64,000 nt of DNA from the NCBI RefSeq assembly GCF_013167455.1, contig NZ_CP038328.1, one strand, 5' to 3'. Position numbers: made by a program. How positions within the stretch are numbered: position 1 is the stretch's first letter; each line of letters starts with the position of its first letter. Source of the stretch: Escherichia coli O157:H7 (GTDB taxonomy: Bacteria > Pseudomonadota > Gammaproteobacteria > Enterobacterales > Enterobacteriaceae). Positions 46,901 through 49,900 of the stretch are shown piece by piece.

Positions 46901-49900
46901 TATCACCACGCGGGAGGAATTAACCGAGGCCAGTAATGAACTGTTCTCTTTGATTGCCAGCGGTGTGATTAAGGTCGATGTCGCCGAGCAGCAGAAATAT
47001 CCGCTGAAGGATGCGCAGCGTGCGCATGAGATTCTGGAAAGCCGCGCGACGCAAGGTTCCAGCCTGTTGATTCCATAAAAGAAATAGGGCTTCCACCTGG
47101 GAAGCCCTTTCTTTTTATAGTTCGGCTGTATGTAGGGTACAGCACGATGAATCTGTTAGAGGCGCAATAGTGACAGATTTGATTATCAATTCCTATTTTG
47201 TTCTAAGGATAAAACCTTAGGTTGTGATCATCCGCACAATCCCTTAGTAACGCCAGCGGTCATAACGCTGATATTTCGGCACTTTTGGTGCTTTAATCGC
47301 CTTAATAACCCACACCACCGCAATCGCCAGGAGTAACCACGGCAGCAACTTAATCATCAATGCCAGCATACCGCCGAGGAACATAATGGCCGTCGCCACA
47401 ACCAGCGCGGCGATAATGCCCAGCAACGAAACGCCGGTGACCATCAACATGACAAAAAAGCCAATCACAAAAAGTAGTTCCAGCATGATGCTCTCCCAAA
47501 TATGAAATCTCTTGCAGGCATTACAAGAATCATGCCAAAAATAATCTATTGATTTAACAGCAAAACGCCCCGCGACGGTGCGCAGGGCGTGGTGAATTTG
47601 ACTACTTTTTGGTGAAAAGTTAACGCTTATCCGCCACCAGTTTGAGCGCGTGTTCCAGCACGTTAATGTCTGCACCCGCTTTATGGGCATTTTCACTTAA
47701 ATAACGCCGCCACTGCCGCGCGCCAGGAATACCCTGGAACAAGCCCAACATATGCCGGGTAATATGGCCAAGATACGTCCCCTGGCTGAGTTCACGCTCA
47801 ATGTACGGATACATGGCGCGCACTACCGCCACCGGATCGGCATCGGTATCCGAGGAACCAAAGATCTCTCGGTCTACCGCCGCCAGAATACCCGGATTCT
47901 GATACGCTTCGCGCCCGACCATCACGCCATCCATATGTTGCAAATGCGCTTTAGCCTCTTCCAGCGACTTGATACCACCGTTAATCGACATCGTCAGATG
48001 CGGAAAGTCACGCTTCAGTTGATACACACGCGGATAATCGAGCGGCGGGATTTCACGGTTTTCTTTCGGGCTTAACCCCGAAAGCCAGGCTTTACGTGCG
48101 TGGATGATGAACATCTCACACTCGCCTTTGCCGGAAACGGTGTTGATGAAATCGCAGAGAAATTCATAGCTGTCCTGGTCATCGATGCCAATACGCGTTT
48201 TCACCGTCACCGGAATCGACACCACATCGCGCATCGCTTTCACGCAGTCGGCAACCAGCTGCGCATTACCCATCAGACACGCACCAAACATGCCGTTCTG
48301 CACCCGGTCAGACGGGCAGCCGACATTCAGGTTGATCTCATCATATCCACGCGCTTCTGCCAGCTTCGCACACTGCGCCAGCGCCGCCGGATCGCTACCG
48401 CCGAGTTGCAACGCTACCGGATGTTCTTCTTCACTGTACGCCAGGTAATCACCTTTACCGTGAATAATCGCCCCTGTAGTCACCATTTCGGTATACAGCA
48501 ACGTATTGCGGGAAAGCAGACGCAAGAAATAGCGGCAATGTCTGTCCGTCCAGTCGAGCATGGGAGCAATGCTAAACCGAGAATTCCAGTAAACACCAGT
48601 TTTTTCAGGCATCACGCTGGTTTGATTAATTTTTAGTGTTTCATGATTATCGTGCATTTTTGAACATTTCAGGCTATTTTTCTCGCGTTAGGTTCCCGCA
48701 CAGGTTCCCACGTTTTATGGGAACCCGAAATAACGAGGTCGTGTAATGGCGTACTATAACATAGAGAAACGACTAAAATCCGATGGCACACCACGCTATC
48801 GCTGTAATGTGATTATCAAAGAAAAAGGTGTTATCACTTACAGGGAAAGCAAAACATTCCCTAAACATGCTCATGCCAAAACATGGGGCACACAGAAAGT
48901 GATGGAATTAGATCTATATGGCATTCCATCATCAAATGCAGTTGACGGACTTACAGTCCGTGACTTACTACACAAATATTTAAATGACCCAAATGCCGGA
49001 GGTAAAGCAGGCCGTACTAAAAGATATGTGCTGGAACTGCTTATGGATAGTGACATCTCCGCGATCAAACTATCTGAACTGACAGAAAATGACGTAATTG
49101 AACATTGCAGGCTAAGAAACAACGCTGGTGCAGGTCCAGCTACAGTTAGCCACGATGTTAGTTATCTTGGCAGTGTTCTGGATGCTGCCAAACCTGTATA
49201 TGGAATTAATTACACATCAAACCCAGCGAAAAGCGCTCGCCCATATCTACTTAAACTTGGTTTGATTGGTAAATCAAACCGTCGTAATCGTAGACCAGCA
49301 TCTGATGAACTGGACATGCTCATTGAAGGCCTTCAACAACGATCTACTCATAAATGCTCAAAAATTCCGTTCGTTGATATCCTCAAATTTTCTGTGTGGT
49401 CCTGTATGCGGATCGGAGAAGTATGCCGGTTACGATGGGAAGATCTCGACCAGGAACAAAAATCTATACTCGTAAGAGACAGGAAAGATCCACGCAAAAA
49501 GGAAGGCAACCACATGAAAGTAGCCTTGCTTGGGGAAGCCTGGGATATCGTCCAACGACAGCCCAAAAAATCGGAATTCATTTTTCCATATAACAGCACT
49601 TCTGTTACTGCAGGATTTCAGAGGGTAAGAAGCAAATTAGGTATTAAAGATCTGCGATACCATGATTTGCGTAGAGAAGGGGCAAGTCGCTTATTTGAGG
49701 CTGGTTTTAGTATTGAGGAAGTCGCTCAGGTTACAGGGCATCGTTCATTAAACGTGCTATGGCAGGTATATACCGAACTGTATCCGAAATCTTTACATAA
49801 TCGTTTTGAAGAGCTCCAAAGGAGCAGAAATAAGACCTCTTGACACTGTTTATCCATACAGTTAAAAATAATACTGTATACAAACACAGTATAGAGGGAC

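What the first reader, a model, noticed from the sequence alone, without database searches (positions are those of the whole stretch)
48691..48725. Three GGTTCCC motifs immediately upstream of the integrase start
GGTTCCC-gcaca-GGTTCCC-acgttttat-GGGAACC (two direct copies and one inverted) lies about 20 bp upstream of the int ATG at the island boundary. The arrangement looks like arm-type recombinase binding sites or an operator for int autoregulation.
Basis: seen in the sequence. Interest (0 to 1): 0.4.

Follow-up and report, generated by a model that had tools for sequence, protein, structure and literature searches.

The report
Integrase arm-binding sites of a dusA prophage
The three GGTTCCC words are real and are most likely the sites where the prophage integrase anchors its extra N-terminal DNA-binding domain to build the recombination complex; this is an ordinary kind of feature, though I found no description of it for integrases that target the dusA gene.

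Summary
The motif is exactly as described: GGTTCCC at 48691 and 48703 (+) and 48719 (-), ending 20 nt before the int ATG. The window is E. coli O103 RM8385. The "island" is the 50.9-kb lambdoid prophage Lys8385Vzw, inserted in the 5' end of dusA. The true crossover (TCGAGCAT, 48554-48561) lies 130 bp to the left, so the motif sits inside phage DNA, in the 88-bp gap between the phage-supplied dusA start and int.

The cluster alone is weak evidence: 14.5% of shuffled windows hold some such triple. Comparison settles it. The other arm of attP (phage mEp460, and attR of RM8385) carries GGTTCCCaataGGCTCCC 61 bp from the core. K-12 attB has no copy.

Sixteen relatives, down to 30% integrase identity, keep the same geometry: two direct copies in the far arm, two direct copies at about +137/+149, and usually one or two inverted copies before int. 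The word itself changes (GCACCCC, GTACACC, GGACACC, TTGCTAC and others). It tracks the integrase's N-terminal 58 residues, modelled as three strands plus a helix.

Verdict: arm-type integrase sites. Int autoregulation and control of dusA are plausible but untested. Known kind, new family member, modest interest.

The parts
48690..48697 (+). P'1 arm-type site, aGGTTCCC, +137 from the start of the core
   Evidence: The same position is occupied by the lineage-specific word in relatives.
48702..48709 (+). P'2 arm-type site, aGGTTCCC, 12 bp after P'1 (+149)
   Evidence: The 11-12 bp spacing is conserved in the relatives whose P' arm has two direct copies; Pseudomonas phages E220 and Haddon show one direct copy plus two inverted copies.
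48719..48725 (-). P'3 arm-type site, inverted copy (GGGAACC on the + strand), +165
   Evidence: One or two inverted copies are present in most relatives, but not all.
48554..48561 (.). Core / crossover identity TCGAGCAT, shared by attL, attR, attP and attB, inside the dusA codons for PMLDW
   Evidence: four-way alignment; position. A seven-base core was reported for the near-identical phage 1720a-02 (PMC6328086).
48562..48657 (-). Phage-supplied 5' end of dusA (ATG at 48655-48657). It forms the long spacer of the P' arm between the core and the arm sites.
   Evidence: The segment is identical to the phage genomes and about 80% identical to K-12.
48746..48919 (+). Codons 1-58 of int: the N-terminal three-strand plus helix domain, proposed reader of the GGTTCCC word
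   Evidence: AlphaFold2 model, pLDDT 85, strands 2-10, 16-26 and 29-38, helix 41-58. It covaries with the word.
48746..49843 (+). int, a 365-aa tyrosine integrase of the dusA-associated family
   Evidence: Pfam Phage_integrase at residues 189-346. 99.7% identical to the Int of phage 1720a-02, which is required for excision (PMC6328086).

Best explanation
The three GGTTCCC copies are the int-proximal (P') set of arm-type binding sites in the attP/attL of a lambdoid prophage that integrates into the 5' end of dusA.

The full attP spans about 235 bp and has five sites. Two direct copies lie in the far arm at -61 and -50 (GGTTCCC, GGCTCCC). An IHF-like site lies at -33. Next comes the core TCGAGCAT. 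About 100 bp of replacement dusA coding sequence follows. Finally there are two direct copies at +137 and +149 and one inverted copy at +165.

The integrase is heterobivalent. Its C-terminal domains act at the core. Its N-terminal 58 residues, modelled as a three-stranded sheet plus helix, bind the arm words. This bridges arms and core into the intasome for integration and, together with the PrtN-family directionality factor encoded at the other prophage end, for excision.

The P' sites fill the 88-bp gap between the divergent int and phage-supplied dusA starts. Bound Int therefore probably also damps int transcription, and perhaps dusA transcription.

Shown here: the sites, their presence on both arms, the conserved geometry, covariation with the N-domain, and the model fold.
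Inferred: physical binding by Int, a requirement for recombination, and autoregulation.
For: (a) Both arms. mEp460 attP has exactly five matches (at most 1 mismatch) within +/-600 bp of the core, at -61, -50, +137, +149 and +165(inverted). attR of RM8385 has the far-arm pair. K-12 attB has none.

(b) Conserved architecture with a changing word in 16 elements, from 100% down to 30% Int identity: YeP1 GCACCCC, EKP1 GTACACC, Morganella GGACACC, Salinivibrio GTCTCCC, Pseudoalteromonas GTCACCC, Marinobacter GTGCTCC, Burkholderia BcepIL02 and Pseudomonas E220 TTGCTAC, Haddon GTGGTAA, Acinetobacter TTTACACC. In most of the 10 intact attPs the P' word recurs as a pair in the far arm at -60/-49 or -81/-70. 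Salinivibrio and Pseudoalteromonas show only the -60 copy at <=1 mismatch, and Ralstonia NK-7 only a degenerate copy at -82. Word density is 9-fold higher inside attP than in the flanks.

(c) The word tracks the Int N-domain. Partial Mantel r = 0.33, p = 0.005, controlling for the rest of the protein; the reverse test gives r = 0.13, p = 0.18. Pairs that share a word are more alike in the N-domain than elsewhere: 66% against 58%, and 67% against 48%. Independent IMG/VR loci reproduce the mapping from N-domain class to word. Residue 30 is I, Y, H or R in the four enterobacterial word classes.

(d) Purifying pattern. Among near-identical E. coli copies, the only substitutions within the 35-bp feature fall in the spacers. 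In an 85%-identity lineage, 2 of 21 heptamer positions differ, against roughly half of the spacer positions.

(f) An IHF consensus match lies at -33 in three enterobacterial attPs.

(g) Int of the 99.7%-identical phage 1720a-02 is required for excision. In a distant family member, attP-int alone integrates at E. coli dusA, a PrtN-type RDF drives excision, and fragments upstream of int and of dusA both have promoter activity (PMC8409611).
Against: There is no binding, footprint or mutational evidence for any member of this family.

The triple cluster alone is not statistically compelling.

The words used in the Mantel test were aligned by eye, and the sequences are phylogenetically related.

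No sigma-70 consensus promoter was found in the region, so the autoregulation part has no direct support.

Some relatives lack the inverted copy.
Confidence: 0.8

Rival explanations
1. The words are binding sites for another element-encoded protein, either the PrtN-family directionality factor or a phage repressor, rather than for Int.
For: A PrtN-family gene lies next to attR/attP in many members. Directionality factors do bind repeated sites in att arms, and in KplE1 TorI sites overlap the int promoter (PMC2951348). Any element-encoded protein would co-vary with the element's DNA to some degree.
Against: The architecture stays constant while the type and position of the RDF vary. BcepIL02 and E220 have no annotated PrtN gene beside attP, and Haddon has an annotated excisionase downstream of int. 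The word correlates specifically with the Int N-domain after controlling for the rest of Int. Sites occur on both arms in a 2 + 3 layout, typical of integrase arm sites; from general knowledge of lambda-type systems, RDF sites usually cluster on one arm.
Confidence: 0.08
2. The three int-proximal copies are only a transcriptional operator for int and/or the phage-supplied dusA promoter, and are not needed for recombination.
For: They occupy the 88-bp divergent intergenic region, 20 nt from the int ATG. The gap between copies 2 and 3 is A/T-rich and resembles a -10 element in many relatives. In a family member, promoters for int and dusA lie in this junction region.
Against: The same word recurs as a pair on the far arm, about 200 bp away and on the other side of the core, where no int promoter exists. 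It sits at a fixed distance from the core in most lineages. That layout is what intasome assembly predicts, not what an operator predicts. The two roles are not mutually exclusive.
Confidence: 0.05
3. The inverted pair acts as a nucleic-acid hairpin: a structure in the 5' leader of the int or dusA mRNA, or a terminator.
For: The - strand (dusA sense) folds into an 11-bp stem of -21.9 kcal/mol, z = -2.9.
Against: In the int sense the fold is no better than shuffles (z = -0.44). No T-run follows on either strand and no terminator was called. The gap between the copies varies from 7 to about 35 nt. Several relatives lack the inverted copy but keep the direct pair. A hairpin explains neither the first direct copy nor the far-arm pair.
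Confidence: 0.03
4. A chance cluster of a 7-mer with no function.
For: 14.5% of shuffled 64-kb windows contain some triple 7-mer cluster within 35 bp. The word is not enriched in the window overall.
Against: The word recurs on the other att arm, the geometry is conserved across 16 lineages with lineage-specific words, and only spacer positions are polymorphic in E. coli.
Confidence: 0.01

Closest known systems
Lambda Int arm-type sites (P1, P2 / P'1, P'2, P'3) and the heterobivalent integrase model. The general description is in the introduction of PMC2951348; the details of the lambda layout are from my own knowledge.
   Same: A short word distinct from the core sequence is repeated two times on one arm and three times on the other. 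An extra N-terminal domain on the integrase is the candidate reader. There is an IHF-like site between arm sites and core. The attP is about 235 bp. A separate directionality factor is used for excision.
   Different: The third P' copy is inverted. The P' arm is long because it carries about 100 bp of replacement dusA coding sequence. int sits beside P' and reads outward, separated from the RDF gene by attP. The word and the N-domain sequence are unrelated to lambda's, and there is no Pfam match.
KplE1 / HK620 IntS system: the int promoter overlaps attL P' arm-type sites, and int is negatively regulated by IntS and the RDF TorI (Panis et al. 2010, PMC2951348).
   Same: int is transcribed away from the junction, so its promoter region must coincide with the P' arm sites. 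int and the RDF gene are uncoupled and lie at opposite prophage ends.
   Different: The target is the 5' end of a protein-coding gene (dusA), not the 3' end of tRNA argW. The RDF belongs to the PrtN family, not to TorI. The same region must also drive the restored host gene. Repression by Int is untested here.
dusA-associated integrases (Farrugia et al. 2015, PMC4482086; Durand et al. 2021, PMC8409611; phage 1720a-02 in Balasubramanian et al. 2019, PMC6328086).
   Same: This element is a member. int is divergent from dusA, the element supplies a new dusA 5' end, the semi-conserved core repeat is present, and the RDF is of the PrtN type.
   Different: Those papers define only the 21-bp core repeats, the 7-base core and the RDF. 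None mentions arm sites (0 occurrences of 'arm'). The arm sites, their fixed geometry and the lineage-specific words come from this analysis.
AP2-like / Arm-DNA-bind_4 (PF14657) three-stranded-sheet DNA-binding domains of integrases.
   Different: The E. coli domain itself has no Pfam hit. The structural scores are low and not specific.

Membership tests
Arm-type sites of a heterobivalent tyrosine integrase | Several copies of a word different from the core sequence, on both arms of attP flanking the core | tested here: met
   Five sites at -61, -50, +137, +149 and +165 in mEp460 attP and none elsewhere within +/-600 bp. attR of RM8385 has the far-arm pair.
Arm-type sites of a heterobivalent tyrosine integrase | The integrase carries an additional N-terminal DNA-binding domain ahead of the core-binding and catalytic domains | tested here: inconclusive
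   Residues 1-58 model as a confident three-strand plus helix domain, ahead of Int_N-like residues 73-165 and Phage_integrase 189-346. There is no Pfam hit, and the fold searches are unspecific.
Arm-type sites of a heterobivalent tyrosine integrase | Site sequence co-evolves with the integrase N-domain | tested here: met
   Partial Mantel r = 0.33, p = 0.005. The class-to-word mapping is reproduced in independent loci. Residue 30 discriminates four word classes. Caveats: the words were aligned by hand, and the sequences are related.
Arm-type sites of a heterobivalent tyrosine integrase | Site for a DNA-bending host factor between arm sites and core | tested here: inconclusive
   An IHF consensus match (1 mismatch) lies at exactly -33 in mEp460, YeP1 and EKP1. 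There is none at that place in the more distant members. This is a consensus match only.
Arm-type sites of a heterobivalent tyrosine integrase | Int N-domain binds the sites, and the sites are needed for recombination | not testable with these tools
   Requires EMSA or footprinting and att-site mutagenesis.
dusA-associated integrase elements (Farrugia 2015) | int lies next to and divergent from dusA; the element replaces the dusA 5' end; the semi-conserved core repeat lies within dusA | tested here: met
   The core TCGAGCAT lies within GTCCAGTCGAGCATGGGAGC. The DusA N-terminus differs from K-12.
dusA-associated integrase elements (Farrugia 2015) | A PrtN-family RDF is encoded across attP from int | tested here: met
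   A gene annotated 'pyocin activator PrtN family protein' lies about 1.4 kb inside attR of RM8385. mEp460 annotates an excisionase with pfam11112.
KplE1-type autoregulated integrase gene | The int promoter overlaps the P' arm-type sites | tested here: inconclusive
   The geometry requires the promoter to lie in or near the 88-bp gap, but no consensus promoter was found. Only weak -10-like hexamers occur between copies 2 and 3.
KplE1-type autoregulated integrase gene | Int represses its own promoter | not testable with these tools
   Requires a Pint reporter with and without Int in trans.
Pfam Arm-DNA-bind_4 (PF14657) | A significant match to the family profile | tested here: not met
   The E. 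coli N-domain has no match even at E <= 10. Ten of 37 relatives match only at E 0.01-0.1.

The most novel reading that the evidence does not exclude
The N-terminal 58 residues of dusA-associated integrases form an unannotated arm-binding module. Its 7-8 bp target word has been re-programmed many times, while the attP geometry stayed fixed at -61/-50 or -81/-70 and +137/+149. One or two sheet residues (positions 7 and 30) may set the word.

In addition, the P' sites may act as a bidirectional operator, through which the level of integrase controls both int and the restored host tRNA-modification gene dusA.
Probability: 0.3. Interest if true: 0.55.

Novelty: new member of a known kind. Interest (0 to 1): 0.35.

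Why it matters
dusA is a common integration hotspot. 727 of 5,426 complete E. coli genomes carry this int-attL segment, including Shiga-toxin phages such as 1720a-02 and phiSTEC1575-Stx2k. Published work defines only the core repeat and the directionality factor.

A full attP map would let people do three things: define minimal functional att sites, set prophage and island borders correctly, and design integration vectors or excision-defective mutants.

The set of lineages with identical geometry but different words is a natural experiment. It could help decode how small sheet-type arm-binding domains read DNA.

The location of the sites between int and the replacement dusA start suggests a testable link between integrase level and expression of a host tRNA-modifying enzyme.

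Tried and rejected
- Window-wide enrichment of GGTTCCC: none (8 copies against 6.6 expected).
- Sigma-70 promoter and intrinsic terminator scans of 48350-49000: nothing found, so neither Pint nor the dusA promoter could be placed.
- RNA hairpin reading: unremarkable in the int sense (z = -0.44). The dusA-sense stem is strong (z = -2.9), but it is not conserved as a hairpin and has no T-run.
- Pfam on Int and on the N-domain alone: no arm-binding family reaches threshold.
- NCBIfam: only far sub-threshold Xer-type hits to the catalytic domain.
- Profile search of the N-domain against PDB sequences: noise only.
- Foldseek against PDB: nothing significant.
- I first took the Lys8385Vzw record as attP, but it has a duplicated TCGAGCAT. 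This looks like an artefact of circularising prophage coordinates, so I used mEp460 as the true attP.
- Many IMG/VR loci begin exactly at int and gave no upstream sequence.
- Literature searches pairing 'arm-type' with dusA or dihydrouridine synthase found no description of these sites.

Full report
**Observation.** The sequence at 48691-48725 reads GGTTCCC-gcaca-GGTTCCC-acgttttat-GGGAACC. Exact matches lie at 48691 (+), 48703 (+) and 48719 (-). The direct copies extend to AGGTTCCC. Copies 2 and 3 form a perfect 8-bp inverted repeat. The int ORF starts at 48746, 20 nt after the last copy.

The word is not enriched in the window as a whole (8 copies against 6.6 expected). The triple is the only three-copy cluster of any 7-mer within 35 bp in the window. 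However, 14.5% of dinucleotide-shuffled windows contain some such cluster. The sequence alone is therefore only suggestive, and comparison with related elements carries the argument.

**Context.** The window is the E. coli O103 RM8385 chromosome (100% match). The element is the 50.9-kb lambdoid prophage deposited as Escherichia phage Lys8385Vzw. dusA runs on the minus strand with its ATG at 48655-48657, divergent from int.

I aligned four sequences: the window junction, the attP of phage mEp460, the far junction of RM8385, and K-12 attB. The only block common to all four is TCGAGCAT (window 48554-48561). Chromosome-type sequence lies to its left and phage-type sequence to its right. The motif is therefore 130 bp inside the phage, in the 88-bp gap between the phage-supplied dusA start and int. 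It is not at the boundary itself.

The Lys8385Vzw record has TCGAGCAT twice in tandem, which looks like an artefact of circularising prophage coordinates. mEp460 has one copy, and I used it as the real attP.

This int-attL segment is present at 80% coverage or more in 727 of 5,426 complete E. coli genomes.

**The other arm.** In mEp460 attP, a scan of +/-600 bp around the core with at most one mismatch finds exactly five sites:
- GGTTCCC at -61
- GGCTCCC at -50
- GGTTCCC at +137
- GGTTCCC at +149
- the inverted copy at +165

The far-arm pair is also present at attR of RM8385. The native dusA upstream region of K-12 has no copy.

**Relatives.** I fetched sixteen elements whose integrases are 100% to 30% identical. 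In every lineage a short word is repeated in the same layout, but the word differs:

| Element | Word |
|---|---|
| Yersinia YeP1, Klebsiella Kp4884-1 | GCACCCC |
| EKP1 | GTACACC |
| Morganella IME1369_02 | GGACACC |
| Salinivibrio SMHB1 | GTCTCCC |
| Pseudoalteromonas C5a | GTCACCC |
| Marinobacter AS1 | GTGCTCC |
| Burkholderia BcepIL02, Pseudomonas E220 | TTGCTAC |
| Ralstonia NK-7 | GGTGTGC |
| Pseudomonas Haddon | GTGGTAA |
| an Acinetobacter prophage | TTTACACC |

I examined ten intact attPs. In most of them the P' word recurs as a direct pair in the far arm, at -60/-49 or at -81/-70, which is two helical turns further. Salinivibrio and Pseudoalteromonas show only the -60 copy at one mismatch or less, and Ralstonia NK-7 shows only a degenerate copy at -82. 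In most of the ten, the P' pair sits at about +137/+149 and is followed by one or two inverted copies. Word density is 9-fold higher inside attP than in the flanks.

An IHF consensus match lies at exactly -33 in the three enterobacterial attPs.

**Who reads the word.** Int has a catalytic domain at residues 189-346 and a weak Int_N-type match at 73-165. Residues 1-70 have no Pfam match.

The stronger evidence is covariation.
- Word distance correlates with N-domain distance after controlling for the rest of the protein (partial Mantel r = 0.33, p = 0.005). The converse test gives r = 0.13, p = 0.18.
- The two pairs that share a word across genera are more alike in the N-domain than elsewhere: YeP1/Kp4884 at 66% against 58%, and BcepIL02/E220 at 67% against 48%.
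- Independent IMG/VR loci reproduce the mapping from N-domain class to word.
- Among 15 enterobacterial sequences in four word classes, residue 30 in strand 3 is invariant within each class and differs between all four: I, Y, H, R. Residue 7 also discriminates.

Caveats: the words were aligned by eye, the sample is small, and the sequences are related by descent.

**Selection within E. coli.** Among 25 loci of the E. coli type, the only substitutions inside the 35-bp feature fall in the spacers: one in gcaca and two at one position of acgttttat. In an 85%-identity lineage the spacers are largely rewritten. Copies 1 and 3 stay intact, and copy 2 becomes GGCCCCC.

**Mechanism.** The best-supported reading is the classical heterobivalent integrase model. 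Int's C-terminal domains act at the core, and its N-terminal domain binds the five arm words. With an IHF-induced bend, this folds attP into an intasome.

Three published experiments on close or distant family members support the parts around the arm sites:
- Int of the 99.7%-identical phage 1720a-02 is required for excision.
- An attP-int fragment of a Vibrio dusA element integrates at E. coli dusA, and a PrtN-type protein is its directionality factor.
- In that same element, fragments upstream of int and of dusA both have promoter activity.

RM8385 encodes a PrtN-family protein at the far end of the prophage.

The P' sites fill the divergent int/dusA gap. KplE1 IntS represses its own promoter through P' arm sites that overlap attL (PMC2951348). 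By analogy, autoregulation of int, and possibly modulation of the restored dusA, is a reasonable inference. I could not place a promoter, so this step remains inference.

**Rivals.**
- Another protein, such as the RDF or a repressor, is unlikely. RDF type and position vary while the layout stays constant, and the word tracks the Int N-domain specifically.
- A purely regulatory operator does not explain the far-arm pair at a fixed distance from the core.
- A hairpin is unremarkable in the int sense (z = -0.44). The dusA-sense stem is strong (z = -2.9), but no T-run follows it, the gap between copies varies, and some relatives lack the inverted copy.
- Chance is excluded by the comparative data.

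**Comparison with what is known, and novelty.** This is the familiar kind of feature known from lambda, P2, HP1, Tn916 and KplE1. The three papers that define dusA-targeting elements describe the core repeats and the RDF, but contain no mention of arm sites. Searches pairing 'arm-type' with dusA or dihydrouridine synthase found nothing relevant.

I rate it a new member of a known kind. The fixed geometry, the lineage-specific words and the unannotated N-domain give it some added value. Interest is modest: a specialist would not be surprised, but the map is useful and the specificity pattern is testable.

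Noticed in passing
L002 (MT225100 Lys8385Vzw), about 2465-2490; compare L001 2495-2502: The deposited phage record has the core TCGAGCAT twice in tandem (ATCGAGCATTCGAGCATGGG), while mEp460 has one copy. 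This is probably an artefact of circularising prophage coordinates that included both att copies.
   Followed up: partly
window 48675-48681: A TATTTTT box about 10 bp left of the first arm site is conserved in nearly all enterobacterial relatives, although the surrounding sequence diverges. It could be a -10 element for int, or part of the leader or translation-initiation region of the phage-supplied dusA start on the other strand.
   Followed up: no
window 48700-48730, minus strand: In the dusA sense the inverted repeat extends to an 11-bp stem through G-U pairs (-21.9 kcal/mol, z = -2.9). No T-run follows it. It would sit in any transcript that enters dusA from the int side.
   Followed up: partly
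L006 (OM284015 'Elizabethkingia phage EKP1'): This record carries an enterobacterial-type dusA attP with the same geometry and a 67%-identical Int. That is odd for a Bacteroidota host, so a host misassignment or contamination seems possible. 'Bacillus' phages vB_BpuM-ZY1 and Dartukuta also have Int hits at 34-38% identity.
   Followed up: no
hits H20-H24, H40, H81 (for example Enterobacteria phage cdtI 23116-23652): Other E. coli prophages, such as Enterobacteria phage cdtI, carry a fragment 95% identical to int residues ~41-219 (query bases 307-836; annotated as hypothetical proteins). It appears to be an integrase remnant.
   Followed up: no
attP of relatives: The far-arm site pair sits at -61/-50 in enterobacterial and Vibrio-type elements, and at -81/-70 in Pseudomonas, Burkholderia and Marinobacter elements. 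The shift is 20 bp, or two helical turns, which keeps the helical phase.
   Followed up: partly
L003 1791-2779 (RM8385, just inside attR): Between the PrtN-type RDF gene and attP, the prophage carries a Panacea-domain protein and a small hypothetical gene. This slot holds different genes in mEp460, so it looks like a variable cargo slot next to the far arm.
   Followed up: no
window 49905-50153 and 50477-52227: A dinI homologue follows int directly; it is annotated in the phage records. Two ORFs of unknown function come next, at 50477-51397 (+) and 51622-52227 (-), before the tail-fibre genes. I did not examine them.
   Followed up: no
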